The position numbers were made by a program, and so were the translations under genes. 55,535 nt of DNA from Cyanophora paradoxa CCMP329 (taxonomy: Eukaryota > Plantae > Glaucophyta). Each line of letters begins with the position of its first letter. The stretch's first letter is position 1. The stretch is from contig QPMI01000690.1 in NCBI GenBank assembly GCA_004431415.1, forward strand, positions 1 to 55,535, read 5' to 3'. The notes under the pieces were generated by a model, which was not told the DNA's origin, did not search any database, and saw only the letters and a program-made list of their open reading frames with translations. Below, one piece after another: positions 1,563 through 40,833 of the stretch.

Positions 1563-2960
1563 CCGTACCCCTGGCTACGGCGGCGGCAGCGAGGGGGGTA
1601 GAGGTGAGCGCGGGAGACTCCCCCCCCCCAAGGGACCTGAGCCGCCCCCTTCTTCCGCCCGCAGATCCCGCTCCTTCTGGGCGGCGGGGCGAGTCTCCAC
1701 CGGCCCCGTACCCTGGCTACGGCGGCGGCGGCGGTGAGGGGTAGAGGTGCGCGCGGGAGACTCGCCGGCCCCCCCCAAGGACCTGAGCCGCCCCCCTTCT
1801 TCCCGCCGCAGATCCCGCTCCTTCTGGGCGGCGGGCGAGTCTCCACCGGCCCCGTACCCCTGGCTACGGCGGCGCGGCGGCGAGGGTAGAGGTGCGCGCG
1901 GGAGACTCGCCGGCCTCCCCCAGGGACCTGAGCCGCGCCCCTTCTTCCCGCCCGCAGATCCCGAGCCTTCTGGGGCGGCGGGGCGAGTCTCACCTCCCCG
2001 TACCCTGGTTACGGCGGCGGCGGCGAGGGGGGTAGAGGTGAGCGCGGGAGACTCGCCGGCCTCCCCCGAGGGACCCTGACCCGCGCCCCGTCTTCCCCGC
2101 CGCAGATCCCGCCCCCTCTAGGGCGGCGGGGCGAGTCTCCACGCGCCCCCGTACCCCTGGCCACGGCGGCGGCGGCGAGGGGGTAGAGGTGCGCGCGGGA
2201 GACTCGCCGGCCCCCCCCAAGGGACCTGAGCCGCCCCCCTTCTTCCCGCCCGCAGATCCGCCCCTCTAGGGGCGGCGGGGCGAGTCTCCACCGCCCCGTA
2301 CCCTGGCTACGGAGGCGGCGGCGGGGGGGGGGGGTAGAGGTGAGCGCGGGCGACTCGCCGCCCCCTCCCCAGGGGACCCTGACTCGCGTCCTTCTTCCCG
2401 CCCGCAGATCCCGCTCCTTCTGGGCGACGGGGCGAGTTTCCACCGGGCCCCGTACCCCTGGCTACGGCGGCGGCGGCGAAGGGGGTAGAGGTGCGCGCGG
2501 GAGACTCGCCGGCCTCCCCCGAGGGGCCTGACCCGCGCCCCGTCTTCCCGCCCGCAGATCCCGCTCCTTCTGGGGCGGCGGGGCGAGTCTCCACCGGCCC
2601 CGTACCCCCTGGCTACGGGCGGCGGCGGCGAGGGGGGTAGAGGTGAGCGTGGGAGACTCGCCGGCCTCCCCCGAGGGACCTGAGCCGCTGCCCCGTCTTC
2701 CCGCCCGCAGATCCCGAGCCTTCTGGGCGGCGGGGCGAGTCTCCACTGGCCACCGTACCCTGGCTACGGGCGGCGGCGGCAAGGGGGTAGAGGTGAGCGC
2801 GGGAGACTCGCCGGCCTCCCCCGAGGGACCTGACCGCGCCCCTTCTTCCGCCGCAGATCCGAGCCTTCTGGGGCGGCGGGCGAGTCTCCACCGACCCCTG
2901 TACCCCTGCCTACGGCGGCGGCGGCGAGGGGGTAGAGGTGAGCGCGGAGACTCGCCCCGC
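1563..2960. repeat. Tandem array, ~150-bp unit, about 9.5 copies; each unit has GGAGACTCGCC in both orientations
   Basis: GTAGAGGTG recurs at 1598, 1741, 1886, 2032, 2183, 2334, 2485, 2637, 2787 and 2932. A second copy lies at about 49910-51320. Confidence 0.95.
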
Positions 2961-3057
2961 CGCCCCCTGGGCCCGCCCGCCCCGCCCCCCGCCCCTCCCC
3001 TCTCGGACTCATCGGCCCTCAATTCGACAGGGCTGCGGGCGGAGCGCGGGGGCGCGG

Positions 3058-4613: not shown

Positions 4614-4808
4614 TTCTCCCCCGGGCTCAACGCTGACGGGGTACCCCCTCAGGTCGCCCTCTTTTAGGCTCGCCCCGCGGGGGGTACGCCCGAGGCGGCG
4701 CGGCGATTCCGGGCCCCCGTTTCGGCGCAGCCGTCGGAGACGCGATAAAAAGGGGACGGGGCGGGCCTGAATCCGCACACTCTTCGCCGAGCTCTGCACC
4801 CCGCGATC

Positions 4809-7800: not shown

Positions 7801-10412
7801 CGAGGCCGGCCGCCTGAGCTCGCTCTTCATCTACGCCGACGCGCCCGACGCGGAGAAGGAGAAGCTCAAGGAGAAGGCGCTCGTCGGGGCGCTCGACCTC
7901 TTCGCCTACAACTCGGCCGTACCCCAGGGCAGCGACTTTAACGAGGGCGGCTTCGACGTCTGCATCGTGGCGATGGGCGGGCGGACGTACGACGTGAACG
8001 GGGCGGGGCAGGGCATGGCGCGCGTGCGCTCTGTCGCGGAGCCGGACGTCTTCGTGTGCGCGGGGCGCGAGCCGCGGGAGGAGGCCGCCCTGGGGCCCCT
8101 GGGGGCGACGGTCGGCGGCGTCGAGGCCGTCTACGAGCGGCGCCTCGAGGAGGAGCGCGAGATGCGGGGGCGGGTCGAGGGCGACCGCGCCCGGCTCCCC
8201 CGGGCCGACCTCGCCTTCCTCCGCATGCAGGCGGCCCGCCTCGTCGTCCTGAACTGGAGCCGGCAGCGCACCGTCCAGGCCCTCGACGCCAAGTTCGGGA
8301 AGATGGGGTACGCGCGCGGCCTGGAGCTCGTCGAGAAGGCCGAGCCGCTCCCCAAGTCCGTCGCCTCGCTCCTGAACGGCCTCGCCGCGCGCGTGCGCTC
8401 GGCGGCGATCTACGCCCCCGTGGCCGCCGCCGCCACCCTCGGGGAGGAGGACCCCCGGACGGGCGCCATCGTGGAGAGCATGCTGGCCGGGAGGGCGCCG
8501 GCGGCGCTGGGTCGGTGGCCCGTGACCGAGGCGGAGAGGCTCGCGTGCCGGAAGCGCTTCGTGGCCGGCGCCCTCCGCATCGACCCCGCCGACGTCAGCC
8601 TCGCGGAGGTCGAGGCGCACGCCAAGGAGACGCCCGCCTCCCTCCGCCCCCTGATCCGCGCCTTTGGCGCCGCCGCCGGCCCCTTCCTCGCCGACCGCGA
8701 CGGGCGGGGGGCGGTCTACGGGAGGCACGGGGGGTACGGGCTCCTGGCGGGGCGCGTGGACAAGCAGCACACGCGGCGGAGCGCCCTCGCCCTCCTCGCC
8801 CTGGCGGCGGCCCCGGGCCCCCGGCGGGGCCCCGCGGCCCGGCCGCCCGGCGCCCTCGTCGTCGAGAAGCTCTCGCCCCTCGGGCTCCTCGACTCGTTCG
8901 CGCCGGACGCCTGGCCCGCGGCGGACCTCGCTCGCCTCGCGGCGGCGGTGGAGCGGGACCGGCTCTTCGAGCACGCGACCCGGCGGGACTTTGTGGTCGG
9001 GGCGGGCCTGCTCCAGCAGGCCGACCGGGCCGACGCGGCCGCGTGCAGGGCGTACCGCGCGCGCGCCCAGGAGCTCTTCGATCTGGCCAAGGAACCGACG
9101 CTGGAGGTGGCCGTGGGGAAGCACTTTCTCCGACTCCTGAAGCGGGCGGCCATCTGGGCGGGCGTACCCCTCAAGCCGGCCGTCTTCGCGGGCCCCCCGA
9201 AGCGCCGACAGGTCGGCGGGCGGCGGGTGACCCAGAGGGCGGCGTCGAGGGCGGGATTCGTGGTGGACTACCTCGCCCTCGCCTTTGTTACCTGCGCCCA
9301 CGCCAAGACCGAGTACGCGTCCCGGCGGCTCTTCGAGGCGTCGAACCCGGAGCCCGAGGCGGCGGCGGCGGCGGCGGAGGAGGAGGAGGAGGGGGAGGAG
9401 GAGGGCGCGGCTCCGGGCGGGGACGGCGAGGAGGGGGAGGGGGCGGGCGAGGGCGGCCGGCGGGGGGGGAGGAGACGGACGTGGCGGACGGCCTCGATCG
9501 GGCGAGCGAGGGCGGGGACGAGACGGCGGAGGCCGACCGGGAGGCCATCGAGGCGCTCCTCGCGGGGGCCGCCCCGGGGGAGCGCGCCCCCCTCCCGCCC
9601 GTCACGTACCCGGAGCCGGAGGAGGGCGCGGGCGCGCGCCGGTGGACCCGCCACGGGGCCCGCCTCTTCTTCTCCGCGATGAACCTGACGGCCGTCGCCA
9701 TGAGCGCGATCGTCGAGCTGGGGCGGCCGCTGCCGCAGCGCAGGCCCCTGCGCGAGCGCGCCGAGCTCCACCCCTCTGTCTGGTACGGGCCGGCGGCGCG
9801 GGCGCTGGCGGCGGAGCCCAACGAGCTGCTCGGGCGGCTCCTGGGGATGGGGGGGGGCGAGGAGGCGATCCGCGCGGCGGCGGCGCGCGTGCACGCGGCC
9901 CTGCTGGACTCGTGCGACGCGGAGGAGAGGGCGGGCGCCGAGTCCGAGGCGGAGCCGCGGGTGACGCCGGCGGCGCTCGAGGAGCTCCTCCGCGCCCTCT
10001 GCGAGCGGGCCGCCGAGGCGGAGGCGCGCTCCGCGGCGGATCCCGGCGTCGACGAGGAGGACGCGCGCTGGTTCGTGGGGCGCCTGGCCGAGGCCTGGCG
10101 CGCCGGCGCGGGGACGCGCTCCGACCCCGCCAGTTTCACCAAGAAGGAGCTCAACGGGATCTTCAAGCCCAAGGACCCGACGAGCGGGGAGGAGCTCCCC
10201 GTGACGCTCCGGGGGCTCCCGAACAAGGTCGCCGTCATCAAGCCCGGCAACAGCAGCGGGTCCGGCCTCGGCCTCGTCGCCGACTGGCTCGAGAGGCGCG
10301 GGGCGCCGTCCCTCCGCATCCAGCTCGAGTGGCGCGCCCGCCCAAGGGGAAGGAGCTCACGGGGATCGCCGTCCCCCGCGCCCTCTTTGCTCACTTCGGA
10401 TTCGACAGCTAG
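4809..10412 (+). CDS. AEP primase/PrimPol + UL52-like Zn finger + UL9 (origin-binding protein)-type SF2 helicase fusion; several apparent sequencing frameshifts
   Basis: AEP motifs: FLDFD, FSGLK/GFHV (1-nt slip at ~5470), IDRSPLNPNCGLRL. Zn finger: CHLGVEH...FRC...HSDC. Helicase motifs: AQTGTGKS, VVVDE, VIADAD, AYNSAVPQGSDF, QGMARVR. The C-terminus continues through frames 8056..10728 and 9285..10412 to FGFDS*. The start may be 4809 (ATAAAAAGGGGAC at 4745) or 5012. Confidence 0.85.
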
Positions 10413-10780
10413 GCACCCCCTCCTGTACGCGAGCACCTCTGAACGCGTGCGGCTCCCTCTTCCCTCGGTGTTCGGGGTGGGGGTACGGGGGCGGGAGGGA
10501 GGGGAGGGGAGGGGGAGGGGCCCGGGCGCCCCGCCCCGTTCCGCCCTCGCAGGGCTCGCAGCCGGCCGTTCGCGCTCCAAAGGTGCGGCGTACCCCGCCC
10601 CCCCCCCCCCCCCCCCCCCCCCGCTTACCCCTCGTGACAGGGCCCGTTCGAACGAGGCCTTCGCATGCGCCCTCTCATCTGAGCGATTCCCTTTTCGGGT
10701 ATTTTTCTCGCGCCCCGCCGCACTATAAAAAAGATCGCGCCGCCCCGAAACCTCACTCTCAAGTTTCGCAGCTTCGCAAC

Positions 10781-12926: not shown

Positions 12927-13533
12927 ATGAGCTCGGCCCTTTCCGTCGCGTCCTCTCTCGACATGATCGACCCGGCGCTTTTCGGTCGCGACGGCGCGCT
13001 CTTCTCCTGCGGCGCGCCGGCCCGGGCGGCCTGGACTCGGCCCGGCTCCCTCCCGTCGCGTCGATCCTCGCGCCGCCGCTCGTCGCGACCCCTGGCTCCC
13101 TCCCGCCGCCTTTGAAGCCTGCAAGGCGCCCCTCCCGTGGCCCCGCGTGGACGCGGACGCGACGGCGCCGGCGCCCGCGGGCCCTCTTCAGGATCCCCTC
13201 GCGCCCCTGCCGCCGAGCCCCGCGGCCGGCACCCGAGCCCGCCGCGCCCGCAGGGCCCCCTCTGCGCTTCCCGTCGCCGTGCCGGCCCCGGCGCGGCACG
13301 TCGACCTGGGCCCGTGCGCCCCGCTCAGGCGCCGTCGCGTCGTCCGCTGTTCCGTGTGCAGGCTCACGGTACGCGCTCGCGAGGCCCGGGCGGGCGGCGC
13401 GGCGCGGCGGGCGTCGCGCGGCGATCTGACCTTTTTCCTGCGCGCGCAGGGCCACAACAAGAAGACCCACGACCGGTTTGTCCTGGGCATCGTGCCCGTG
13501 TGGAAGAAGCGGCGTCAGTGGCAGCGCAAGCGG

Positions 13534-16938: not shown

Positions 16939-17394
16939 CCCCTCTAGCGCCTCGAGCTTCGGGGCATGGTGCTTCTATTTATCCGCGCCCAGGCCCTCAC
17001 ACTCTTGAGGGCGGCTTTGTTTTCGGCCGACGTGCGCTGCGGGCGGCCCGAGGTTTACGAGTATGTATATGTGCGTATGCGGGGAGAATTCGAATCGAAC
17101 TGCAGCGCTAGCTGGGATCCGGATCGGGCCTGCGTCGACGTTCCGTCGACCTAGGCCTCCCGCCCGCCGTTGCCCGCGTCTCCCGCGCGGACTGCTTTAT
17201 AAGCGAGCGCATGCACGGCCCGGGCCCGGGGGGACCGGGCGGGGGCGGGGGTGCACGTGCCGAGGCGGCGGGCGGGGTGCGTGACCCGCGAGTCGCCCTC
17301 CCCTCTGGACGTTGGCCGTACCCCTCCTCCTCCCCTCCCCGGGCCCCCCTCCGGAGACTCGCCGCCACCCCCCTCTGGAGGGAGCGGCGCTCGC

Positions 17395-18765
17395 GCGTCG
17401 TCCGCAAGGCGAACGAGTGAAAGGGAGGGAGGGTGCCGCGCCGCAAGAGGCAGGGGGGTAGAAGAGTTTCCGGGGCGCCATGCGCCCCCGCGCCGATGGA
17501 CCAGGCCTAGGGGGCGCCGAAGCTCGTTCTGGGGCGTCGGGCGAGTCTCCAGGGGGAGGGGGGGGGCCGCCGGGGGTACGGCTCGGAGCTTTCGCGCCGC
17601 TCTCTCTCGGGGGCGGCGGCGAGTTTCGAAGGGGGGGGGGGGGAGCTTGAGGGGGGGTAGCTGGGGGTACGAGCGAGATTCTAGCGCCGCCCTCTGTCGG
17701 GGGCGGCGGCGAGTCTCCCGGGGGGGTGAAACGAGGGGGTACGTGGGGGTACGGTCGAGATTCGAGAGTCGTTTGCTTCGAGGGGGTGGCGGCGAGTCTC
17801 CAGGGGGGGAGGGGGAGGTAGGTGGGGGTACGGTCAGAGATTCAGCGCCACCCTCTTTCGGGGGCGGCGGCGAGTCTCCAGGGGGGGAGGGGGAGATAGC
17901 TCGGGGTACGGTCAGAGATTCAGCGCCACCCTCTTTCGGGGCGGCGGCGAGTCTCCAGGGGGGTGGGACGAGGGGCACGTGGGGGTACGGGAGAAATTAT
18001 AGAGCTGTTCGCTTCGAGGGGGTGGAGGCGAGTCTCCAGGGGGGGAGGGGGAGGTAGGTGGGGGTACGGTCAGAGATTTAGGGCGGCGCGGCTCTGGATC
18101 TCTCTCGGGGGCGGCGGCGAGTCTCCGGGGGGGTGGGACGAAGGGTACGTGGGGGTATGGCCGAGATTATGGAGCAGTTCGCTTTGAGGGGGTGGCGGTG
18201 AGTCTCCAGAAGGTAGGAGGAGGCCACCGAAAACTCGCCGCGCCCCCCTCAGGGACCCGTTGCACGGGCGTGAGAAGCCAAGGGTGAGCGAGCTCGAGGA
18301 GAAGGCCGGTCCCGTACCCCGTCTCCCAACCTGGACCCCGCTGGAAACTCGCCACGCCCCCCTCAGGGGCCGGCTGCACGAGCGTGAGAAGCCGAGGGGG
18401 AGCGAGGGAAAGGCCGGTCCCGTACCGGGACCCCATCTCCCAAACCTGCCCCCCGCCGCTGGAAACGCGCCGCGCGCCCCTCAGGGGCCGGCTGCACGAG
18501 CGTGAGAAACCGAGGGGGAGCGAGGGAAAGGTCGGTCCCGTACCCCGTCTCCCAAACCTGCCTCTGCCGCTGGAAACTCGCCACGCGCCCCTCGGGGGCC
18601 GGCTGCACGGGCATGAGAAACTTTAAGCCGAGGGCGAGCGAGGGAAGGGCGGACCCGTACCCCGTCTACAAACCCGCCCCTGCCGCTGGAAACTCGCCGC
18701 GCGCCCCTCAGGGGCCCGCTGCACGGGCGCGAGAATTCGGAGCCGAGGGCGAGCGAGGAGAAGAC
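17395..18765. repeat. Left arm of large imperfect inverted repeat (~80-bp array x~9, then ~115-bp array x~4.5)
   Basis: Reverse complement of 35165-38060, including the non-array stretch CCGCGCCGCAAGAGGCAGGGGGTAG...GGGGCGCCATGCGCCCC. Confidence 0.85.
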
Positions 18766-19303
18766 CACCACCCCCTCCCCCCTGGAGACTCGCCGGCTCC
18801 CCCTCTGAGAGAGCGGTGCTCGAGATTTGATCGTACCCTCACCAACCCCGCCCCCCGCCCCTGGGAGACTCGCCGGCTCCCCCTCGGAGAGAGCGGCACT
18901 CGCGCGTCGTCCGTACCCCGCCGAATGGAAGATGAAACCCCGCCTCCCGCCCCCCTGGAGACTCGCCGCCGACCCCCTCTGAGAGAGCGGCGCTCGGGAT
19001 ACGCAATATATATAAGGAATGCGAGAGGTCTAGATCGCAGAGGGACCGGAGCGTGCGGCCAGAGCACCTTCAGGTGATCGCGGTCAGGGCTCAGATTTCG
19101 AAACGATATAAAGGAACGCGCGCGCGCGCGCCTCTATCTCTGCGCACACGGATCCGGGCCGGGCGGCACTCACGACCACGATCCATAGATTGCGATCGAT
19201 CGAAACTGGGTTCGCCCCCAAGATTCGTGATCGCGATCGGCGGCATAAATTTCAGACCGCTTTCACAGAGCCCTCAGTCCCCACACCGCGACCGAAAACG
19301 ATC

Positions 19304-20227
19304 ATGAGCAGTTGCGTCCACCCTTACGTCGCGTCCGGGGCCGAGGGCGACGTGTGCACGTCCTGCGGCATGTGCCTCGACGCGTACGGGTCGTACGCGA
19401 CGCCCCTGGGCCTCGTCTGCGACGAGCAGGGCGGCGCCGGCGTCGCGTCCTCGCACGATCGATATCTGCAACTGGGGCTGGATCTGCTACGCGATATTCC
19501 AGAGCCGGCGCCGCGCACGTGCACGTGGCAGCCTTCCAAGTCTAGTTCTGCGCGCGCAATCCCGAGCTCGAGCGCGCACGGTACCCACGCGAATATGAAT
19601 CGCACGGAGCTGGATCAGACTGTGAGGGAGACGGCAGAGCGCATGCTCCTCCCGGAGATTGTCTGGCGCGAGGCCCTGGAAACGCTCCGCGAGAAGCGCG
19701 CCGTGATCTCGGGGAGGCGGTACACATCCCTCGCCCTCGCGGCCCTCTATCTGGCCGTCCAACAGCTCGATATCCCTCGTGGGATACACGATTTCGAGCA
19801 CGCGGCCCCTCCCGAGGCGCGCCACGAGGTCCGAAAGTACGTTCGCGTCCTCTTGGAGGCGACGCCGGCGCCGGCGCCGGCCGCGGGGCCCCCCGCGGGC
19901 GATCGGCGCGAGGGCCGTCGCCTTCACACGTACGACTTGGGCGTGTCCCTCGTGGAAAGCGTCGGAAAGAATATTGGAATCGACGGTTCGATCATCTCGG
20001 CCGCCCAGAAGCGCTACAGAGAGTACCTGGAGGCGGGACGAGCTCGTTCCAGGACCCCGAAGATCCTAGCGATAGGGGCGCTCGCGCTCGCGGCCAAGCT
20101 CTCCGGACGCGCTTCCTGGTCCACGCGAAAAATCGCGATTCGAGCCGGGGCCTCTCCGACCGCCGCGCGCGCTGCGGTCAGGGAGATGAGGGCACGGCTC
20201 GGGATAGACCTAGATCTAGACCCGTAA
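19304..20227 (+). CDS. TFIIB-like transcription initiation factor, 307 aa, intronless
   Basis: N-terminal Zn ribbon CVH...CTSCG, followed by two cyclin-fold repeats (GRRYTSLALAALYLA..IPR and SRTPKILAIGALALA..KIAIRAGAS). Confidence 0.85.
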   Translation: MSSCVHPYVASGAEGDVCTSCGMCLDAYGSYATPLGLVCDEQGGAGVASSHDRYLQLGLDLLRDIPEPAPRTCTWQPSKSSSARAIPSSSAHGTHANMNRTELDQTVRETAERMLLPEIVWREALETLREKRAVISGRRYTSLALAALYLAVQQLDIPRGIHDFEHAAPPEARHEVRKYVRVLLEATPAPAPAAGPPAGDRREGRRLHTYDLGVSLVESVGKNIGIDGSIISAAQKRYREYLEAGRARSRTPKILAIGALALAAKLSGRASWSTRKIAIRAGASPTAARAAVREMRARLGIDLDLDP

Positions 20228-24624: not shown

Positions 24625-25290
24625 GGGGCGAACGGTTGCAAGGGGGGTACAGGCGGTCTCGCATGGGGTTCTGGATCTTCTAACGGGGGCGAGGCGAGTT
24701 TCCAAAAGGCGGGGCAGGGGCGTGTGTGAAGGGGTACAGCGCGCGACTCGAAGCGTCTCCCCCTAGAGGGGGGCGTGGCGAGTTTCCAGAGGGGGGGGGG
24801 GTAGGGGGTACAAGGGGAATTCGAGCGCGACCACAATGCAGACTAGGATCGCTCCCTCCATCCTTGGAACAGGAACCCTTCCGGGGCGAACGGTTGCAAG
24901 GGGGTACAGGCGGTCTCGCATGGGGTTCTGGATCTTCTAACGGGGCGAGGCGAGTTTCCAAAAGGCGGGCAGGGCGTGTGAAGGGGTACAGCGCGCGACT
25001 CGAAGCGTCTCCCCCTAGAGGGGGCGTGGCGAGTTTCCAGAGGGGGGGTAGGGGGTACAAGGGGGAATTCGAAGGCCTCGCCGCACCCTAGCTATAGGAG
25101 GGCCGGGGCGAGTTTCCAGAAGGCTCGGAGTGGGTGTGCGGGCGCCCTCGAAATTAAAGGTACATCCTCTGGGGTGGACGTGGTGAGTTTCCAGGGGGCG
25201 AGGCGTGAGGAAGTAAGGGGTGGAGATTTCGAAGGTTAGCACCCTCTTTATCCAGCTATAGCTGGGGGAGCACGGCGAGTTTCCAGAGAA
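24625..25290. repeat. ~258-bp tandem duplication and scattered GGCGAGTTTCCA motifs
   Basis: GGGGCGAACGGTTGCAAGGGGGGTACAGG occurs at ~24625 and ~24883. Confidence 0.85.
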
Positions 25291-25374
25291 CGCGCGCAGG
25301 CGCGGGAGATCTTTGCGGGCCGTGACACCTAGAACTCACCGTCTCGCTCATACTATGATATCCCGCGTCTCGGC

Positions 25375-25960
25375 CCCAGCTGGAAACTCGCCCGCTCCCC
25401 TCAGAGCCTCCGCCCCTTGCTGGAAACTCGCCCCGCTCCCCTCAGAGCCCCCGCCCCCAGCTGGAAACTCGCCCCGCTCCCCTCAGAGCCCTCCCGCCCC
25501 CCAGCTGGAAACTCGCCCCGCTCCCCTCAGAGCCCTCCGCCCCCCAGCTGGAAACTCGCCCCGCTCCCCTCAGAGCCCTCCCGCCCCCAACTGGAAACTC
25601 GCCCGCCCCCCTTAGAGCCCTCCCGCCGCAGCTGGAAACTCGCCCCGCTCCCCCTCAGAGCCCTCCCGCCCCCAGCTGGAAACTCGCCCCGCCCCCCTCA
25701 GAGCCCCCCGCCGCAGCTGGAAACTCGCCCCGCCCCCCTCAGAGCCCCCCGCCGCAGCTGGAAACTCGCCCCGCCCCCCTCAGAGCCTCCCGCCCCCAGC
25801 TGGAAACTCGCCCCGCCCCCCTCAGAGCCCTCCCGCCCCCAGCTGGAAACTCGCCCCGCTCCCCTCAGAGCCCCCCCGCCGCAGCTGGAAACTCGCCCCG
25901 CTCCCCCTCAGAGCCCTCCCGCCCCCCAGCTGGAAACTCGCCCCGCTCCCCCTCAGAGCC
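25375..25960 (+). repeat. ~42-bp tandem array x~14 (CAGCTGGAAACTCGCCCCGCTCCCCTCAGAGCCC...)
   Basis: CTGGAAACTCG recurs every 40-45 nt. Five more units lie at 26460-26680. Confidence 0.95.
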
Positions 25961-27165
25961 CGAGGTGCCGGCGGGGCCGTGACGAGAAACTAGAAGAGAG
26001 GGGCGGGGGAGGGGGGGGGGCGACCTCGCCGGATTGCTCATACCCCGCCCCGCGTCCTGGCCCGCCTCTACCCCCCCCCCTCCCCCTTCCCCCCTCCTCC
26101 CCCCTACCCCCGCTCCCTGAAACTCCCCTGCCCCCCCCGGCGCTCGCGCTAGCCCGCGCGCAGCAAGCGTTCTTCGAGGCTCTTCAGCGCTTGTGCATTT
26201 GGTCAGCGCGCGAGCGGCGCGCGGGGGGTACGTCGCCTCTGGCTTCGATCCTTGCGTACCCCCGAGTCCATCGCCGCCGGCGCGCTTGGCGGAGCTCGCG
26301 ATCGCGGGGCGAGGCGCGGCCCGCGTTCGATATTCAGATGGCCACCGCGCCGCCCACTCCCCACGCTGCGGCGCCGGGCCCAGCGCGACTCGAAAGGATC
26401 TGCAGAGGGGTATGAGCACGCCGAGGGGCCCAGGGGGGCCGAGAGAGACCGCCTACCCTTAGAGCCCTCCCGCCGCAGCTGGAAACTCGCCCCGCCCCCC
26501 CTCAGAGCCCTCCCGCCCCCAGCTGGAAACTCGCCCGCCCCCCTCAGAGCCCTCCGCCCCCCAGCTGGAAACTCGCCCCGCTCCCCTCAGAGCCCCCCGC
26601 CGCAGCTGGAAACTCGCCCCGCTCCCCTCAGAGCCCTCCCGCCCCCAGCTGGAAACTCGCCCCGCTCCCCTCAGAGCCCGAGGTGCCGGCGGGGCCGTGA
26701 CGAGAAACTAGAAGAGAGGGCGGGGGAGGGGGGGGGGCGACCTCGCCGGATTGCTCATACCCCGCCCCGCGTCCTGGCCCGCCTCTACCCCCCCCTCCCC
26801 TTCCCCCCTCCCTCCCCCCCTACCCCCGCTCCCTGAAACTCCCCTGCCCCCCCGGCGCTCGCGCTAGCCGCGCGCAGCAAGCGTTCTTCGAGGCTCTTCA
26901 GCGCTTGTGCATTTGGTCAGCGCGCGAGCGGCGCGCGGGGGGTACGTTGCCTCTGGCTTCGATCCTTGCGTACCCCCGAGTCCATCGCCGCCGGCGCGCT
27001 TGGCGGAGCTCGCGATCGCGGGGCGAGGCGCGGCCCGCGTTCGATATTCAGATGGCCACCGCGCCGCCCACTCCCACGCTGCGGCGCCGGGCCCAGCGCG
27101 ACTCGAAAGGATCTGCAGAGGGGTATGAGCACGCCGAGGGGCCCAGGGGGCCGAGAGAGACCGCG
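25740..27165 (+). repeat. ~718-bp tandem duplication (array tail + ~500 bp unique block)
   Basis: GAGGTGCCGGCGGGGCCGTGACGAGAAACTAG occurs at ~25962 and ~26680. Confidence 0.9.
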
Positions 27166-27200
27166 TACCCCCGCCGCGCAGGAGACTGCAACTGTCCTTC

Positions 27201-28265
27201 TTACATGTCGCCCCGGAGCCGGCGGGTAAACTGAATGTCCTGCCCGGGATTTGAGCGGCCCGTGGATTTGAGCGGCCCGTGGGGGTGGCGGCCCGGGGCG
27301 CGGGGCGATGGGCGCGGGGCGCGGGCCGGGCCCACCTTGGCTGGATCGTGATCCGCTTGGCGTGGATGGCGGCGAGGTTCGCGTCATCGAGACGGTTCAC
27401 GAGAAACTGCGCCCGCAGTCAGGTCAGGCGGGCGCCCGGGAGCGAAGGGGCGGGGAAGGAGCGGGCGCGCACGGCCTCGGCGGCCTCGCGGAGGCACTCG
27501 ATGGCCTCGCGGCGCCAGCGCAGCTCGATATTACCCTCGCCTTCGGCCGCCTTCTTCTCCTTCATGACGTCCTGCCCGATCTCCCTGACCTGCGGCCCGT
27601 GACGCGGGGGGCCGGGCGACCGGAGCGGGCCGGCGCACGAGGCGGGCAAAGCCGGCGTAGCTGATGAGCGCGTTCGTGGTCTGCACGGTGGCGGTGAGCC
27701 GTCTCGGCCGCTCGTACGGCGGGGGCGCGCGCGGAGCCGACGTGCCTTCTGGTACTTGCGGATCTACGGGAGGAGGGAACTGTCCGTCGGGCACGAGCGA
27801 GGGGATCGAGAGAGGCGAGGCGCACCTCGCGAAGTGCCACGGTGCCTTTCAAGACGCCCCGCCAGGTCGCCGGACCGGCGCACGCGTCAGGAATCAGCGG
27901 CGGGGGCGGGGCGGCGGGCCCGGGGGGCGCGTGGGGCGGCAGGGAAACGACCGGGGCGGTAGCGGTGAGGCTTCTTGACCTGGTGACGATGACCAAGGTG
28001 AGCAGAGGCCGGCGCGTGTGCGCGGCCCACGGCTAGCAGTGGCCCCGGGATCCCACGCACCCCGCCGGCCGCGGGCGCGCTCTTGCGGGCGGCCTTGCTC
28101 GAGAGATTCTTCTTGGCGGGCGCGTCCGCGAAGCGCTTGCGAGGAGCCTTCTCTCCCGTGCCCTTCTGACCCTGCGAGCACGACGACGTCGTACGCATCG
28201 GCGGCGCCGGCGCGCGGCGGGACGGCGGCCGGGAGAGAGCTCACGGTGTGCTTCACCCTGGCCAT
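27201..28265 (-). CDS. Histone H3 variant (~155 aa, 9 exons) with CenH3-like histone-fold features
   Basis: Exons: 28265-28245, 28171-28061, 27979-27952, 27845-27826, 27763-27746, 27680-27639, 27589-27473, 27406-27336, 27239-27201. They give MARVKHT-GQKGTGEKAPRK...[55 protein letters not shown]...[40 protein letters not shown](K)-DIQFTRRLRGDM*. One base is missing at the last junction, and intron 5 is GC-AG. Confidence 0.92.
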
Positions 28266-29247: not shown

Positions 29248-32200
29248 ATGTTCTCCGTGGTGACAGACACCTACGAGAGGGCCGAGTTCCAGGGGCCCTA
29301 CGGGTGGACGGGCCTGGTCGTGCTCCGCACGGACGCGGGGCCGAGCGTCTGCGTACCCGAGCTCAGGCGCCTCATCGCGTTCACGGGGGGCGACGCGCGC
29401 CTCGGGGAGACCTTTGGGGTCCCGACGCGGCCGCTGCGGGATGAGAACACGATCCTCCTCCTGGAGCACCTCGCCGCCCTCCCCCGCAAGCACTACGACG
29501 CGCAGGAGCGCCCGCCGCACGTCCTCGCCCTGCGCTACGTCGAGACGGTCATAGGCAACTCGTGGGAGCGCTCGCAGGACGTGCGCATGCCCCGGGCGGC
29601 GGCGGAGCTCTATGCGGCGCTGGAGAGGAGAAAGCAGGGCACCTTGCAGCGGCTCGAGATGCAGTTGATTCGGACCGGCGGCGATCGGCTCCTGGCCGTC
29701 CGGGCGCGGCGGATCGAGACGCCGGAGCTGCAGTGGTGGATCCCGCTCGCGAGCCTCGCCGAGGCGGCGTACGGCGACTCGCGCAGCACGAACTGCGTGC
29801 GCCAGGAGATCGTGAGGAAGCACCCCGACCTCGCGGTGGGCGGGCCTCACCGGTTCGAGGCGAGCACGCGGACGGTGGGGCGCGAGCGGCTCGCCCTCCT
29901 GACCCGCACCCTCGTCCACTACGGCGGCCTGGGCGCTGACGTGGCGACGTACGGCTCCGCGCGCCGCTGGGCGTTTATCAGCGCGCTGGGGTGCGAAAAG
30001 GTGCTGGCGGGGCTGCCGGACCGGGCCCCCGGGCTCGCCGCCGAGTTTAAACGAGCGCGGCTCCTCCTGGAGGGGGCCGACCCCGCGACGCTCGACTCGG
30101 CCCCGTCGCTGCCGCTCGCCCCGGCCCCGCGCGTCTCCATCTTCGGACGCAAGACCTGGCTAAAGGTGAGCGGGGCCTCGGCGAGGTGGGGGGTAGGGAG
30201 GCGGGGAAGGGGGGGGGAGGGAGGGGGGGGGTACCGACCACGCCGCAGGACGCCGAGATCGCCAACGTCCTCTCGCTCCTGCTCCTCCGGGCGCACGCGG
30301 GGGACAAGGTCAGGGCCCTGTACCCCATGCACGTCGAGATTCTCGCCTCGCTCCTCCGGCGGTACGCGCGCGCCGACGAGGCCAGGCGCGCGCGGGGAGC
30401 CCTTGGCGCCGCCGAGCGCGGCGCCTGCGTGCTCTGCCCCGTCAGCGTGGGCAACCTGCGGCGCGGCGGGGAGCGCACAAAGGGATGGGCCTCGGGCGGC
30501 CACTGGACCCTCCTCGCCGTCGACGGGAGCGCGAAGCGCGTGGGGTACTGGGACTCGCTCGGCGCGGACCCCGAGCCGAAGCTGCAGCACGCGGCGATGG
30601 CGGCCTTTCCGCGCTTCCCGTTCGTCGTCCAGACGGGCGGCCGCCTGCAGGTGGGGGACGGGTATCAGTGTGCGCGCTCGCCCCGCCCCCCTCCTCCGGC
30701 CCCCTCCCCCGCGCGCCCGCGCCCCCCCTCACCTCGCCGCCGCCGCCGCCGCCGCCGCAGGCGGGCCGTGGACCCTCTGGTTCGCCGAGGTGAAGACGCA
30801 AGAGGTGCTCACGGGCTTTCCCTGGTCCGACGAGATCGAGAGCGGGTGCCTCTCGTACGTGTACCCTGGCGAGGCTATCTCGTCGGCGATCGCGGCGGAG
30901 AACGGGCGGTTCATCGCGGAGAAGCGCGAGGCGTACCGGACGATGCTGGAGAGCGGCGTCGTCGACCAGGCCGTGGCGCTCTTCGACGAAGACTCGCTGC
31001 CGGACGCGGAGCGCGTCGTCCTCCCCGCCGTCCCCGCCACGGCCGCCGCGGCGGCGGCGGCGGCCGCCGCCGCCGCCAAGTCCGTTCGAAAGGCCGGCAA
31101 GGCCGCGGCCGCGGCGGCGGCGGGGGGGCCCTCCATCACCGTCCTCTCCTCGTCCTCGTCCTCGCCGTCCTCCGAGGACGGCGGAGAGGGAGACGAGGAC
31201 GGGGAAGAATCCGAGGGGCGCGCCGACGGGGACGGGGCCGACGCGCCGGCGGGGACAGAGGAGGCCCTCGCCGAAGAGGTGCACGAAGATGGGGAGCCGG
31301 GGGCCGAGCGGCTCGCGCCCTACGCCCTGCGCGAGTCGGAGATGTCACGGGAGCTGAGGAACCAGCTCGCGGCGTTTCAGACGTGGCGCACCTCGGCCCT
31401 CAACCCCGACCGCCAGGGCGGCGCCGCCGAGCGCTCGACGGTCCTCGTCAACGACGTCGGCACGATCTGCCGCCTGCTGGGGTACGTCAAGGAGCGCGAA
31501 CAGGTCGGGCCGCTCACGATGGACCTCTTCGCGCGCACCGATTTCGTGGAGATCTACCTCCGCTTCCTCGGCTACCTCCGCTCCGAGCGCAGGCTCGCGG
31601 CCGGCACCCTCGCGGGGTACACGCAGAGCGTGATGCAGGCCTACGCGTTCGTTCACAGCCGAACCGCCGGGGCCGAGGCGGGGGCCGATCGAGAGGGTCC
31701 GCACGCCCGCCCGCTCCGGAACCTGAAGACGCAGTTGGAGAAGGAGAAGAAGCAGCAGCGGGGGTGGAGGAAGCGCGGACCGAACTGGGTCTCGTTCGAG
31801 GCCGTCCTCTCGGCGCGGCGCGAGGCCCTCGAGGCGTTCGAGGCGGCGCCGCTCGAGCGGGACAGGGCCCTCGCCCTCCGCGAGGCCGTGCTCATCGGGT
31901 TCCTGAGCATCACGCCGGCCCGCGTGGGGGTCGTGCGGCGCCTGCAGATCGGTCAGACGCTGCGGCGCGACGGCGGCGCGTGGGCGATCTCGCTCACCGA
32001 GATGCGGCACGAATCGGGGGAGCTGGTGTCGAAGACGGCCAAGTCGCACGGCGCGATCACGGTCCCCATCGCCAGCCCGCTCCAGGCCCCCCTCGAGACC
32101 TACGTGGAGCGCTACCGCGGCCTCCTGCTGCCCGCCGGGCGCGCCGACGAGGGCTGGCTCTTCGCCTCGAGCAACGGCACCTGCCTCTCGGAGAGCGGGT

Positions 32201-33698
32201 GGGCCGTCTTCGTGCGCAGGGTGATGCTCAAGTACGTGGGCCTCCCGATCACTGCGAAGACGATGCGGGCGATCATCACGACGCACGTGCGGGAGCAGGC
32301 GGCGGCGAACCTGATCGAGAACGAGACCGCGGCGGCCGTCGTCGAGGGCGTCGCCCGCCTCCTCGCCCACACGCCCCAGACGGCGACCCTGCACTACGAT
32401 TACGGGGCGCGCCAGCGCTCGGCGGCGAGCGCCGTGGCGTACCTCGAGCGCCTCGCCCTCCAGCACGAGGCGCGGTCCAGGGGCTCGGCGTCGAGCCCCA
32501 CGGGCCTCCCGGGCGCCTCGTCGTCGGCGCCCCCGCCGCCCCCGCCGCCGCTGCCGCCGCCGCCGCCCTCCCTCCCCCTGGAGGCCCTTCCCGAGCCGCC
32601 TCCAGATCCCGACCCCCGCGCAGCACCCTCCTCCTCTTCCTCCTCCTCCTCGCGATCCGCGCGCGCAGAGGGCCCGGCGCCGTCGCCCGCCGTTGCGGCG
32701 CGGCCGGCCCGCGGCGCGGCCGCCGGGGGGAAGGAGAGCGGGGCGAGGGCCGGGCCGGGGAGCGCCGGGAGCTCGGGGTCGGCCCGGGCCGCCCAGGAGA
32801 GCACCGAGACGAGTTCGGGGTCGCAAGAGGAGGAGGCGGAAGAGGAGGAGGAGGAGGAGGAGGAAGAGGAGGAGGGGGAGGAGAGCGGGTCGTCCGCCGA
32901 GCGGCCCCGGAAACCGAAGCGCTTCCACTGGCAGCGCCGCCGCCTCGACCCGGGGGACCAGATGGAGCTGGACCTCGCCCGGGGCGAGGGCCGCTACTGC
33001 GAGACCTGCAAGCGGGTAAGGAACTCCCCGCCCGCGACCCCCCGAGCACGCGCGCCGCGCACCCTCACCGACTGTAGATCTTCCAGACGGCCGGGGGCGC
33101 CCGCCAGCACGCCCGGAGCTGTTCCGGCGGGGCGAGCCGCACGCGGGAGAGGCGGGGAGGGGGCGCGGGGCACGGGCGAGGGCGCGGGCGGGGTGCGGGG
33201 TCGCCCGCGGCCCTCCCCGCCCCCGTGCACGTCGCGCAGCCGGCTTCCGAGGGGCCCCCGCCTCCGACCTGGCACCTTCGGTGGGTCAGCGCGAGCCCGT
33301 ACCCCCCCGGGCAGGTCGCGGCGGCGATGGCGACGCACTCGACGGACCCGCTCCCGCGGACGGTCTTTGCTCGGCTCGTCCAGACCGTGCGCCTCCCCAG
33401 CGGCGAGTTCGAGTCCCGCTGGGTCGTGCTGCGGCGCTTCGGGGCCTTCTGGACGCCGGGCTCCGAGGGCAGCGCGCGCGAGTGGAGGGGGGTACGGGCG
33501 CTCGCGCCCGTCGACTACGACGCGAGAAACGGGAGCGTGGACATCAGGACGCCCGCCGCCCGCATCTCCGACCTCCTCGGGCTCGGCTCCGGCACGCGGG
33601 CGCCGTCGCCGCCGCCTCCGCGGTCCGGGGCGGGAGCCCGGGGCGAGGGAGGGGCCTTTCGGCCGCGGGGCCGGCCCCGGAAGCGCCCGGGTACCTGA
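29248..33698 (+). CDS. Multidomain tyrosine recombinase (1404 aa spliced): Bro-N-like + Ulp1/C48 protease + YR + C2HC Zn finger + AT-hook
   Basis: Introns 30166-30248, 30670-30760 and 33016-33077 keep frame without any indel. Ulp1: WLK|DAEIAN, GHWTL, WDSL, QVGDGYQC|GPW. YR: PARVG, SKTAK, KTMR, LLAH, LHY. Zn finger: CETCKR|IFQTAGGARQHARSC. AT-hook: RPRGRPRK. Confidence 0.9.
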
Positions 33699-35100: not shown

Positions 35101-35164
35101 TCCCACGACCCCTCGCACTCCGTTTGCCGAGCGCCGCTGCAGAGGTTCTCGCGCCCGTACGCGT

Positions 35165-38060
35165 GCGGCGGGGCCCTGAGGGGCGCGCGGCGAGTTTCCA
35201 GCGGGGTCCAGATTTGGAGGCGGGGTACGGGACCGCCCTTCTCCTCGCCCGCCCTCGGCTTCTCACGCCCGTGCAGCGGGGCCCTGAGGGGGGCGCGGCG
35301 AGTTTCCAGCGGGGGAGGGTCGGGTCTGGAGACGGGTACGGGACCGCCCTTCTCCTCGCCCGCCCTCGGCTTCTCACGCCCGTGCAGCGGGGCCCTGAGG
35401 GGGGCGCGGCGAGTTTCCAGCGGGGGAGGGTCGGGTCTGGAGACGGGTACGGGATTCCCCTTCTCTCCCTCGCCCTCGGCTTCTCACGCCCGTGCAGCGG
35501 GGCCCTGAGGGAGGCGCGGCGAGTTTCCAGCGGGGGAGGGTCGGGTCTGGAGACGGGTACGGGACCGCCCTTCTCCTCGCTCGCCCTCGGCTTCTCACGC
35601 CCGTGCAGCGGGGCCCTGAGGGGCGCGGGGCGAGTTTCCAGCGGGGGAGGGTCGGGTCTGGAGACGGGGTACGGGATTCCCCTTCTCGCGCTCGCCCTCG
35701 GCCTCTCACGTCCGTGCAGCGGGGCCCTGAGGGGGGGCCCTGCGAGTTTCCAGCGGGGGAGGGTCGGGTCTGGAGACGGGGTACTGGATTCCCCTTCTCT
35801 CGCTCGCCCTCGGCTTCTCACGCCCGTGCAGCGGGGCCCTGAGGGGCGCGCGGCGAGTTTCCAGCGGGGGAGGGTCGGGTCTGGAAACGGGGTACGGGAT
35901 TCCCCTTCTCTCGCTCGCCCTCGGCTTCTCACGTTCGTGCAGCGGGGCCCTGAGGGGGGCGCGGGGCGAGTTTCCAGCGGGGGAGGGTCGGGTCTGGGGA
36001 CGGGGTACGGGATTCCCCTTCTCTCACTCGCCCTCGGCTTCTCACGTCCGTGCAGCGGGGCCTTGAGGGGCGCGGGGCGAGTTTCCAGCGGGGGAGGGGC
36101 GGGTCTGGAGACGGGTACGGGATTCCCCTTCTCTCACTCGCCTCGGCTTCTCACGCCCGTGCAGCGGGGCCCTGAGGGGGCGCGGCGAGTTTCCAGCGGG
36201 GAGGGTCGGGTCTGGAGACGGGGTGCGGGATTCCCCTTCTCTTTCTCGCCCTCGGCTTCTCACGTCCGTGCAGCGGGGCCCTGAGGGCGCGGGGCGAGTT
36301 TCCAGCGGGGGAGGTCGGGTCTGGAGACGGGGTACGGGATTCCCTTCTCTCCCTCGCCCTCGGCTTCTCACGCCCGTGCAGCGGGGCCCTGACTGGGGCG
36401 CGGCGAGTTTCCAGCGGGGGAGGGTCGGGTCTGGGGACGGGGTACGGGACCGCCCTTCTCCTCGCTCGCCCTCGGCTTCTCACGCCCGTGCAGCGGGCCC
36501 TGAGGGGGGCGCGGCGAGTTTCCAGCGGGGGAGGGTCGGGTCTGGAGACGGGGTACGGACCGCCCTTCTCCTCGCTCGCCCTCGGCTTCTCACGCCCGTG
36601 CAGCGGGGCCCTGAGGGGGGCGCGGCGAGTTTCCAGCGGGGGAGGGTCGGGTCTGGAGACGGGGTACGGGATTCCCCTTCTCTCCCTCGCCCTCGGCTTC
36701 TCACGCCCGTGCAGCGGGGCCCTGAGGGGGCGCGGCGAGTTTCCAGCGGGTCCGGGTCTGGAGGCGGGGTACGGGACCGCCCTTCTCCTCGCTCGCCCTC
36801 GGCTTCTCACGCCCGTGCAGCGGGGCCCTGAGGGGGGCGCGGCGAGTTTCCAGCGGGGGAGGGTCGGGTCTGGAGACGGGGTACGGGACCGCCCTTCTCC
36901 TCTCCCGCCCTCGGCTTCTCACGCCCGTGCAGCGGGGCCCTGAGGGGGCGCGGCGAGTTTCCAGCGGGGAGGGCGGGTCTGGAGATGGGGTACGGGATTC
37001 CCCTTCTCTCCCTCGCCCTCGGCTTCTCACGCCCGTGCAGCGGGGCCCTGAGGGGGCGCGGCGAGTTTCCAGCGGCCTCCTCGTACCTTCTGGAGACTCG
37101 CCACCACACCCGGTGAGAGGGGGAGCGCTAGAACTCTGACCGTACCCCACACCCCCCTACCCGCCCCCCGAGACTCGCCGCCGCCCCGAAAGAGAGCGGC
37201 GCTTAATCTCTGACCGCACCCCTAGTCGCCTCCCTCCCGCCCCCCTTGGAGACTCGCCGCTGCCCCCCCAGAGAGAGAGAGTGGCGCTTAATCTCTGACC
37301 GTACCCCCACTCCCCTCCCCCTCCCCCCCTGGAGACTCGCCGCTGCCCCCCCGAAGCAAACAGCTCTATAATATTGACCGTACCCCCAGCTCCCTCCCCC
37401 CTCCCCCCCTGGAGACTCGCCGCTGCCCCCGAAAGAGAGCGGCGCTTCATCTCTGACCGTACCCCACCTACCTCCCCCTCCCCATTGGAGACTCGCCGCT
37501 GCCCCCCAGAGAGAGAGAGAGAGAGTGGCGCTGAATCTCTGACCGTACCCCCACCTACCTCCCCCCTCCCCCCCCTGGAGACTCGCCGCTGCCCCCGAAA
37601 GAGAGTGGCGCTGAATCTCTGACCGTACCCCCAGCCCCCTCCCCCCTCCCCCCCTGGAGACTCGCCGCCGCCCCCTCGAAGCAAACGGCTCTCGAATTTC
37701 GGGCGTACCCCCCACGTACCCCCTCGTTCCAACTCCCCCGGGAGACTCGCCGCCGCCCCCGAGAGGGCGACGCTAGAAGCTCGGCCGTACCCCCAGCTAC
37801 CCCCTCCCTCCCTCCCCCCCCCCTCTGGAGACTCGCCGCCGCCCCCCGAGAGAGAGCGGCGCAAAAGTTCCGAGCCGTACCCCCGGGCAGCCCCACCCCA
37901 CCCACCCCCTGGAGACCCGCCCGACGCCCCAGAACGAGCGAGCTTCGGCGCCCCCTGGGCCATCGGCGCGGGGCGCATGGCGCCCCTGAAACTCCTCTAC
38001 CCCCTGCCTCTTGCGGCGCGGTACCCCCCTCTCTCTCGCTTGATCGCCTTGCGGGCGCGA
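35165..38060. repeat. Right arm of large inverted repeat (~111-bp array x~17, then ~80-bp array x~11)
   Basis: GGCGAGTTTCCAGCGG recurs every ~111 nt to 37072, then CTGGAGACTCGCC every ~80 nt. Inverted relative to 17395-18765. Confidence 0.9.
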
Positions 38061-40421: not shown

Positions 40422-40833
40422 CTAGGCGAAAGCGGCGCCGTCCGCGAGCTCAAACGCGAGGCGGGGATCGGCGGCGGCGAGGGCCCGCATCTTGGCGAGC
40501 TTGCGCGGGCCGCCCGAGGCGGTCCGCTTGACCTCCATCTCGGCCGCGCGCGCGGCGGCGTTGGAGGGGAAGCCGTGCAGGACGGCGGCGAGGGCCCAGG
40601 GCCCGCGGCCGCGGGTGTAGGCGGTCTTGGACGAGCCCGAGAGGTGCTCGGCGAGGCGGCGGAGAAGATTCTGGGTGGATCCGACGTAGGCGAGGCCCGG
40701 GGCGAGGAGAGGAGGTAGACGACGGGGCGGGGCCGAGGCGCGCGACGAGCTCGGATGGGATTCGGAGGGTGGCGAGGGGTGGGCGGGGGCGGGCGGGCGG
40801 GGGGTACGGGGCATCGTGCGGAGCGGTGCTCAT
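40422..40833 (-). CDS. GIY-YIG endonuclease, SLX1-like catalytic domain (indels in the 5' part)
   Basis: VVYLL...LAYVGSTQNLLRRLAEHLSG...YTRGRGPWALAAVLHGFPSNAAARAAEMEVK, with catalytic Y, Y, R, H and E present. Confidence 0.85.

What the first reader, a model, noticed from the sequence alone, without database searches (positions are those of the whole stretch)
27201..28265. Mobile-element histone H3 with a canonical-like tail but CenH3-type fold
Seen: the tail keeps K4, K9, K14, ARKS(K27) and [10 protein letters not shown] contexts, plus an insertion. The fold has FAR for FQR, LRW for LRF, DAN for DTN and an extended loop 1 (VMKEKKAAEGEGNIE). Known: loss of Q68, F84 and T107 and a longer loop 1 are the standard CenH3/CENP-A diagnostics. 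Inference: the element may build its own centromere-like chromatin or a decoy nucleosome. Eight introns in ~1 kb hide the gene from ORF callers.
Basis: partly seen in the sequence, partly recalled or inferred. Interest (0 to 1): 0.88.

Follow-up and report, generated by a model that had tools for sequence, protein, structure and literature searches.

The report
Algal mobile element's hybrid histone H3
A 48-kb repeated, likely mobile DNA element of the alga Cyanophora carries an eight-intron histone H3 gene with a near-ordinary tail and a core bearing centromere-histone-like changes; it likely helps the element's DNA escape host silencing rather than build a centromere.

Summary
The gene is real. 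Nine exons (seven GT-AG introns, one GC-AG) run 28265-27201 on the minus strand. A68, W84, A107 and an 11-residue longer loop 1 are confirmed. Two corrections: the K9 motif is broken (GQKG), and this copy is one base short at the last junction; two of three annotated copies are in frame.

The copies are labelled Cyanophora paradoxa. They belong to a family of nine gene models in four subtypes. The H3 shares a contig with the same helicase gene in the window and in both other close copies. The window holds a 48.3-kb circular or tandem unit with an origin-binding-like helicase, a probable tyrosine recombinase, TFIIB and 83 copies of one 11-bp motif.

CenH3 membership is not shown. The tail aligns with H3 (80%). 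Six of 62 viral-contig H3s carry the same three substitutions. Four trees place a giant-virus H3 as sister, but no verified CenH3 was in them. A published survey lists other host CenH3 candidates. The fold alone does score best against Cnp1.

Best reading (0.45): an element-borne, silencing-evading H3 variant. A private centromere on the arrays remains possible (0.17). Expression is untested.

The parts
27201..28265 (-). Divergent histone H3 gene, 9 exons and 8 introns, 155 aa when read with X at one break
   Evidence: copies P0001-P0003
28245..28265 (-). Exon 1 (start, K4; T3 replaced by V)
28061..28171 (-). Exon 2 (broken K9 motif, K14, 9-residue insertion, ARKS K27)
27952..27979 (-). Exon 3 (K36 region)
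27826..27845 (-). Exon 4 (20 nt, alpha-N; skipped by the three annotated models)
27746..27763 (-). Exon 5 (18 nt), followed by the GC-AG intron 27745-27681
27639..27680 (-). Exon 6 (R63-K64 replaced, Q68A)
27473..27589 (-). Exon 7 (loop 1 +11 residues, F84W, alpha-2 site EAIE)
27336..27406 (-). Exon 8 (T107A, H113 kept); one base short at its junction with exon 9 in this copy
27201..27239 (-). Exon 9 (alpha-3 and stop)
   Evidence: in frame in P0001 and P0003
1..48341 (.). Repeat unit of the element; bases 1-7175 recur at 48342-55535 (circular overlap or tandem copy)
   Evidence: 97.5%, 141 gap columns
4637..10728 (+). Large helicase gene, origin-binding-protein-like (read across at least two frame changes)
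   Evidence: Atlas top three clusters 0.97-0.98, Herpes_ori_bp in 31-53% of members; no Pfam hit at E 0.01; copies P0138, P0139, P0141
3972..5084 (-). ORF with RING finger
   Evidence: Pfam E 2.6e-7
19307..20227 (+). Intronless TFIIB-like gene
   Evidence: Pfam PF00382 E 1.2e-6
31321..32460 (+). Probable tyrosine recombinase domain, downstream of a weak Ulp1-type peptidase stretch (30240-30560)
   Evidence: Phage_int_SAM_1 E 0.1 and Peptidase_C48 E 0.018; 25% over 116 aa to an integrase-like ORF of L094; catalytic order read by eye; weak
40422..40829 (-). GIY-YIG nuclease; a second GIY-YIG-like ORF at 16123-16974 (-) was read by eye only
   Evidence: Pfam E 4.7e-11
1562..2956 (.). 151-bp tandem array carrying the GGARACTCGCC motif in alternating orientation
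17353..18967 (.). 78/80-bp and 118-bp arrays with the motif; orientation flips near 18.2 kb
24693..26679 (.). Motif cluster and 43-bp arrays just downstream of the H3 gene; orientation flips near 25.3 kb
35162..37884 (.). 111-bp and 80-bp arrays with the motif, inverted relatives of the 17.4-19.0 kb arrays

Best explanation
The gene encodes an H3 variant carried by a multi-copy, likely mobile element of Cyanophora, and it likely joins host H4, H2A and H2B in nucleosomes on the element's own DNA, where it would resist host silencing rather than mark a centromere. Shown: gene structure, residue changes, the nine-model family, co-location with the helicase, and no other histone gene detected in the unit. 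Inferred steps: (1) The host splices and translates it. (2) It pairs with host H4, since R83, H113, R116 and D123 are kept. (3) The broken ARKS motif at K9 and loss of T3 would block heterochromatin writing and reading (the need for the RKS context is recalled knowledge), while K4, K14 and K36 stay available for active marks. (4) Loss of R63-K64, the long charged loop 1 and the altered alpha-2 chaperone site would give a looser, separately deposited nucleosome. On this reading the CenH3-like residues reflect a fast-evolving H3, or at most a captured CenH3-type fold.
For: Across the four subtypes K4, K14, K23 and K36 are kept in 4 of 4. The RKS motif at K9 is broken in 4 of 4, T3 is lost in 4 of 4, R63-K64 is lost in 4 of 4, and K27 is R in 2 of 4 (the K4 position of P0004 rests on a model that starts three residues late). 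Among 41 distinct full-tail viral H3s, K4 is kept in 41, RKS9 in 28, RKS27 in 11 and R63 in 39. Rewriting of silencing-mark sites is thus a parasite-H3 habit, while the K9 and R63 changes are more complete here. All four trees put giant-virus-contig H3 L019 (canonical-type tail; C68, W84, A107) as sister: 99/84, 95/76, 94/73 and 92/85 under a mixture model. The host methylates and mostly silences repeats and viral-origin genes (PMC12344493, passages and section 9), which supplies the selective pressure. No H4, H2A or H2B match was found in the window. Single viral H3s are thought to use host histones (PMC9145170 section 9).
Against: There are no expression, localisation or biochemical data. 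The fold alone scores 4 bits better against Cnp1 than against any H3. Shared derived residues with L019 (9 of 28 positions) are no more than with two CenH3-like sequences (9 and 8). An AU test does not reject a clade with two CenH3-like sequences (p 0.25). The trees have 83-86 columns and no verified CenH3. ARKS at K27 is intact in this copy, so one silencing site remains. This copy has a one-base break.
Confidence: 0.45

Rival explanations
1. Private centromere: a CenH3-derived fold under an H3 tail is loaded on the motif arrays and lets the circular element attach to the spindle or hitch-hike on chromosomes.
For: All four fold diagnostics are met and conserved in 4 of 4 subtypes. Cnp1 is the best PDB hit for exon 7 (2 of 2 hits, E 0.04) and for the fold. 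AU p 0.25. A 58-row tree groups the family with four CenH3-like rows among 14 rows (96/91). The unit looks circular and has four clusters of one repeated motif, so it would need a segregation device.
Against: The tail and alpha-N align with H3 (0.80). The same substitutions occur in 6 of 62 viral-contig H3s and in P0022 (tail 0.91). A viral loop region also hits only CENP-A-type chains. The 14-row group is absent from three other trees. The family profile ranks H3 in the top 60. A published survey lists five other C. paradoxa CenpA candidates, none matching this family.
Confidence: 0.17
2. Host-directed decoy: the protein enters host chromatin or titrates chaperones and modifiers, weakening host defence genome-wide, as proposed for bracovirus H4 and single viral H3s.
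For: It is a single histone with no partners in the unit. The tail insertion is lysine-rich. The unit also carries TFIIB, RING and a weak Ulp1-like domain. Precedent is in PMC9145170.
Against: Nothing tested separates this from the best reading. A low-copy resident element gains more from protecting its own DNA than from global disruption (inference).
Confidence: 0.18
3. Silent passenger: a host H3 variant was captured, diverged under relaxed constraint and is now methylated or decaying.
For: There is a one-base break in this copy and in P0002. 21% of the species' genes are methylated and mostly silent. The three classic positions are among the first to change in any divergent H3.
Against: Four subtypes 62-76% identical in the fold keep W84, the long loop, H113, R116, D123, K4, K14 and K36. 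Two of three close copies are in frame. Eight introns keep usable splice sites.
Confidence: 0.14
4. One family member (P0004 or P0010, single-copy) is the host's own chromosomal gene, possibly its CenH3, and the element copies are recent captures of it.
For: P0004 and P0010 have one model each. Their neighbourhoods were not examined. The host CenH3 is not experimentally known in the papers searched.
Against: Other CenpA candidates with divergent tails exist in the species. A P0006-type copy lies 19 list entries from a second-family helicase, which suggests a second element family.
Confidence: 0.06

Closest known systems
Single viral H3 histones (DSLPV1, Sylvanvirus, xenomavirus; Talbert et al. 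2022, PMC9145170, section 9 read)
   Same: A lone H3 on a parasitic DNA, with a largely conserved tail and an altered alpha-2 chaperone site, presumed to use host histones.
   Different: Those are 73-87% identical to a host-type H3 in the fold; this one is 54%. It has eight spliceosomal introns and an 11-residue loop insertion, and sits on a 48-kb element with no detected capsid gene.
CenH3/CENP-A (criteria in PMC4359364 and PMC3156773, passages read; S. pombe Cnp1 in PDB)
   Same: Loss of Q68, F84 (to W) and T107, and a longer loop 1; Cnp1 is the best single-sequence PDB hit for the fold.
   Different: The tail and alpha-N align with H3. The gene is multi-copy and element-linked. Grouping with CenH3 and centromere localisation are not shown.
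Giant-virus-contig H3 of locus L019 (cluster of 15 members) and similar H3s L025, L045, L054, P0022
   Same: Canonical-type tail (L019, L025, P0022) with CenH3-like substitutions; L019 is sister in four of four trees.
   Different: L019 is intronless, has a normal loop 1 and an intact K9 motif, and lies among large-DNA-virus genes (labels read by eye).
Mirusvirus episomes and intron-rich mirusviruses (PMC12768974, PMC10827195; passages read)
   Same: Circular nuclear elements of protists with spliceosomal introns, histones and RING genes.
   Different: They average 265 kb with HK97-type capsid modules. Here the unit is 48 kb and no capsid was recognised; no mirusvirus marker was searched specifically.
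Tyrosine-recombinase Polinton-like viruses and Cryptons (PMC12220804, PMC10120064; passages read)
   Same: Probable tyrosine recombinase, a helicase fused to an uncharacterised N-terminal region, GIY-YIG nuclease, multiple genomic copies.
   Different: Larger than 14-40 kb; no capsid or packaging ATPase recognised; carries TFIIB and a histone; no protein histone cargo appears in the passages read.

Membership tests
Histone H3 family | H3 tail, alpha-N and histone fold colinear with H3 | tested here: met
   P0001 vs PDB H3 E 2e-28; alignment
CenH3/CENP-A | Absence of Q68, F84, T107 | tested here: met
   A68, W84, A107; but also in 6 of 62 viral-contig H3s
CenH3/CENP-A | Longer loop 1 | tested here: met
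   +11 residues; +10 or +11 in all four subtypes
[quoted passage not shown]
   Tail identity 0.80 to canonical H3, against 0.18-0.36 for six CenH3-like rows
CenH3/CENP-A | Phylogenetic grouping with CenH3 | tested here: inconclusive
   Sister is viral L019 in 4 of 4 trees; AU p 0.25; no verified CenH3 in the set
CenH3/CENP-A | Fold closer to CENP-A than to H3 in solved structures | tested here: inconclusive
   Single sequence: Cnp1 72.1 vs H3 68.0 bits; family profile: top 60 of 177 all H3; controls
CenH3/CENP-A | Centromere or kinetochore localisation | not testable with these tools
   Needs imaging or ChIP
Single H3 of a virus or mobile element | Travels with replication or integration genes | tested here: met
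   Same helicase in the window and on both other contigs with a close H3 copy, 4-7 gene numbers away
Single H3 of a virus or mobile element | No partner core histones on the element | tested here: met
   tblastn with H4 and fused viral histones finds only this H3; intron-split genes could be missed
Single H3 of a virus or mobile element | Expressed protein | not testable with these tools
   No reads could be examined; no per-gene data in the one supplement searched
Virus (PLV, mirusvirus or nucleocytovirus) | Major capsid protein and packaging genes | tested here: inconclusive
   No Pfam capsid hit in 174 ORFs of at least 130 aa, none in PHROGs for 22 proteins, no match to 3 NCLDV capsid-like ORFs; PLV and mirusvirus capsid profiles were not available
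Tyrosine-recombinase element | Catalytic tyrosine recombinase domain | tested here: inconclusive
   Weak hits only; single-sequence model pLDDT 38, not searched
Tyrosine-recombinase element | Defined ends and an empty insertion site | not testable with these tools
   No genome is held for the window

The most novel reading that the evidence does not exclude
A eukaryotic plasmid-like element encodes its own centromeric histone, a CenH3-type fold under an H3 tail, and loads it on arrays of an 11-bp motif, giving a selfish circle its own point-like centromere in a glaucophyte nucleus.
Probability: 0.17. Interest if true: 0.92.

Novelty: new variant of a known kind. Interest (0 to 1): 0.62.

Why it matters
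Lone H3 genes are known from viruses. An intron-rich H3 family riding a 48-kb element with no detected capsid, in a cultured alga, did not turn up in seven literature searches. The family is a natural experiment. Four diverged subtypes keep the active-mark lysines, break the K9 silencing motif and converge on CenH3-like core residues. That makes two questions testable in a culturable host: whether a mobile element can escape heterochromatin with its own histone, and whether the standard CenH3 diagnostics really mark centromere function. It is also a practical warning that those diagnostics misclassify parasite H3s.

Tried and rejected
No genome was held and no sequencing reads could be examined, so splicing, expression, copy number and circularity are open.

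Searches for relatives of the element found little. The helicase, TFIIB, ORF 41536-42060 and an 18-bp array motif found nothing in viral contigs. The recombinase found 2 distant loci. A fold-profile scan of metagenomes gave 31 loci, none of this family. A profile search of 1.84 billion representatives listed 150 hits; besides P0004 and P0010, a pattern scan found no W84-type core among them (P0143 not read).

Structure work did not discriminate. The Atlas look-up of the fold gave generic histone clusters. AlphaFold of paralog P0004 (pLDDT 60) and Foldseek gave nucleosome H3 chains. The recombinase model was too poor to search.

A tRNA-like stretch upstream of the gene was not confirmed.

Rejected readings. 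'Eight introns are unusual': they match the host average. 'Best hit Cnp1 proves CenH3': a viral control does the same. 'Mirusvirus': size differs and no capsid was found, though this was not tested with mirusvirus profiles.

Tree rows left out: the H3/CENP-A chimera P0075 in all trees; 20 further rows; 31 further rows. Loop-1 and insert columns were excluded throughout. Supplements of the bioRxiv preprint on chromatin evolution were not seen and may list these histones.

Full report
OBSERVATION. The minus strand from 28265 to 27201 holds nine exons separated by introns of 73, 81, 106, 62, 65, 49, 66 and 96 nt; seven are GT-AG and intron 5 is GC-AG. Read with X at one break, the product is 155 aa. 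Against canonical H3 P0029 it shows Q68A, F84W, T107A, loop 1 +11 residues, tail identity 0.80 and fold identity 0.54, plus a 9-residue tail insertion. K4, K14, K18, K23, ARKS(K27) and K36 are kept. With canonical sites the last exon is one base out of frame.

COPIES AND FAMILY. A search with exon 7 found 1 protein among 29 candidates, P0001. Its cluster has three members, all labelled Cyanophora paradoxa gene models. P0001 and P0003 have the last exon in frame; P0002 shows the same break as the window. All three skip exon 4 and retain intron 5. Paralog P0004 is colinear with my model through that stretch, which supports the splice model without RNA. The window's terminal repeat differs by 61 gap openings and 8 mismatches in 4154 columns, 54 of the gaps beside a run of the same base, so a read error at the break is likely. 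Further relatives, all from the same species, are P0004 (1 model), P0006 (3 accessions), its mis-spliced twin P0011, and P0010. That makes nine models in four subtypes, 62-76% identical over the fold. All four subtypes lack Q68, have W84 and A/S107, and have a loop +10 or +11. No closer member outside this species appeared in the best 120 of 694 hits, the best 150 of a profile search of 1.84 billion representatives, 62 viral loci or 31 metagenome loci. Eight short introns match the species average (PMC6704402, passage).

THE ELEMENT. Bases 1-7175 recur at 48342-55535, so the window holds a 48.3-kb circular or tandem unit. It encodes a large helicase whose nearest Atlas clusters carry the herpes origin-binding family in 31-53% of members (Pfam gave nothing at E 0.01). 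It also encodes TFIIB, a RING protein and a GIY-YIG nuclease, and a probable tyrosine recombinase behind a weak Ulp1-like stretch (weak evidence). One 11-bp motif occurs 101 times in the window against 0.29 expected, 83 times per unit. It falls in four clusters built from different repeat units, one directly downstream of the H3 gene. The helicase search returned 5 proteins: near-identical copies numbered g1902 and g21531/g21532 on the same contigs as H3 copies g1895 and g21536; one window-encoded model; and a 38% relative, P0140. P0140 stands 19 entries from a P0006-type H3 in the same protein list; a shared contig is not shown. So H3 and helicase travel together in the window and in both other close copies. 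No other histone and no match to three NCLDV capsid-like ORFs was found. No capsid family appeared in 174 ORFs scanned with Pfam, but PLV and mirusvirus capsids could be missed. Element ends and mobility were not observed.

IS IT A CENH3? Published criteria are a longer loop 1, loss of three residues, a highly divergent tail and phylogenetic grouping (PMC4359364, passages; PMC3156773, passages).

For: the residue and loop criteria are met. Exon 7 hits only Cnp1 (2 of 2, E 0.04). The fold scores 72.1 bits against Cnp1 and 68.0 against the best H3. A 58-row tree groups the family with four CenH3-like rows in a 14-row set (96/91). An AU test does not reject a clade with L063 and L052 (p 0.25).

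Against: the tail criterion fails (0.80, against 0.18-0.36 for six CenH3-like rows). The family profile ranks H3 in all top 60 of 177 hits. Of 62 viral-contig H3s (duplicates not removed), 6 have all three substitutions and 4 have two. L019, L025 and L045 lie among large-DNA-virus genes (labels by eye) and L054 is labelled viral; L052 and L057 may be cellular. The loop region of L045 also hits only CENP-A-type chains (14 of 14), and P0022 combines all four features with a 0.91 tail. The 14-row set is absent from three other trees, whereas L019 is sister in all four (99/84, 95/76, 94/73, 92/85). Shared derived residues do not favour L019 over CenH3-like rows (9, 9 and 8 of 28), and the trees hold no verified CenH3, so the origin of the fold is unresolved. 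The supplement of PMC5579357 (parts of file 3 seen) lists five C. paradoxa CenpA candidates with divergent or missing tails. None matches four family motifs; it used an early assembly that may have lacked these genes.

MECHANISM. Shown: a conserved family that keeps K4, K14, K23 and K36 in 4 of 4 subtypes, breaks the RKS motif at K9 in 4 of 4, loses T3 and R63-K64 in 4 of 4, and replaces K27 in 2 of 4, while keeping R83, H113, R116 and D123. Among 41 distinct full-tail viral H3s, RKS9 survives in 28 and RKS27 in 11. The host methylates repeats and viral-origin genes, which are mostly silent (PMC12344493, passages and section 9). Inferred: the protein pairs with host H4, is deposited through its altered alpha-2 site, and forms looser nucleosomes on element DNA that cannot carry the K9 silencing mark (0.45). 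The roles of R8/S10, T3 and R63 are recalled knowledge. Rivals are a host-directed decoy (0.18), a private centromere on the motif arrays (0.17), a silent passenger (0.14) and recent capture of a host gene (0.06). A low-confidence model of P0004 (pLDDT 60) draws part of the insertion as a longer helix 1; it does not discriminate.

COMPARISON AND NOVELTY. The nearest known kind is the single viral H3 (PMC9145170, section 9 read). Those are 73-87% identical to host-type H3 in the fold and are not described with this loop. Intron-rich, histone-bearing mirusvirus episomes are much larger (PMC12768974, passages; PMC10827195, passages). Recombinase-bearing Polinton-like viruses are smaller and have capsids (PMC12220804 and PMC10120064, passages). 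A preprint on chromatin evolution (10.1101/2021.11.30.470311, passages) describes capture of chromatin readers by transposons; its supplements were not seen. Seven searches (listings only unless named above) showed no account of this element or family.

VERDICT. A real, element-linked H3 family and a new variant of a known kind; not shown to be CenH3; expression untested. Interest 0.62.

Noticed in passing
window 1688-3824, 17353-18967, 24693-26661, 35189-37837: One 11-bp motif (GGARACTCGCC) is shared by tandem arrays with unrelated units (151, 78/80, 118, 43, 111 bp). In three clusters the sites flip orientation at a centre, as iterons or recombinase sites might.
   Followed up: partly
window 17399-18763 and 36565-38057: Array blocks are inverted relatives (76-82%) that bracket a ~20-kb segment holding TFIIB, the H3 gene and the recombinase; this may be a nested or invertible module.
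   Followed up: no
window 10368-13087: Tandem ~1073-bp duplications contain 150-bp repeats copied from inside the helicase gene (7847-8026). The same arrangement appears in models P0138 and P0139, so it is shared among copies.
   Followed up: partly
window 25736-27170: A ~720-bp tandem duplication (96.6%) of the region just 3' of the H3 gene, including part of the 43-bp array.
   Followed up: no
window 28440-28545: A tRNA-like stretch and a 24-bp tandem repeat about 200 bp upstream of the H3 start; ARAGORN and Rfam find no tRNA.
   Followed up: yes
window 29251-32460 (+): An unknown N-terminal domain, a Ulp1-like peptidase stretch and a recombinase-like domain appear to belong to one intron-containing gene.
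   Followed up: partly
L019:9989-10408, L025:3876-4295, L045:699-1091, L054:9986-10297; proteins P0017, P0022: Giant-virus-contig and unnamed H3s carry W84, often with A/S107 and sometimes a long loop 1: a recurring class of CenH3-like parasite histones.
   Followed up: partly
L071:50-1267, L072, L076: Metagenome ORFs that appear to fuse several histone folds (H4-like, H3-like and further folds) in one ~400-aa protein.
   Followed up: no
PMC5579357 supplement file 3, CenpA.fa: The species has at least five further divergent H3-like models. One CenpA candidate is fused in its model to an MCM-like protein (label by eye), probably an annotation merge.
   Followed up: no
window 45850-48340: A lower-GC, ORF-poor stretch with palindromic runs just before the unit junction; a candidate origin or attachment region.
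   Followed up: no
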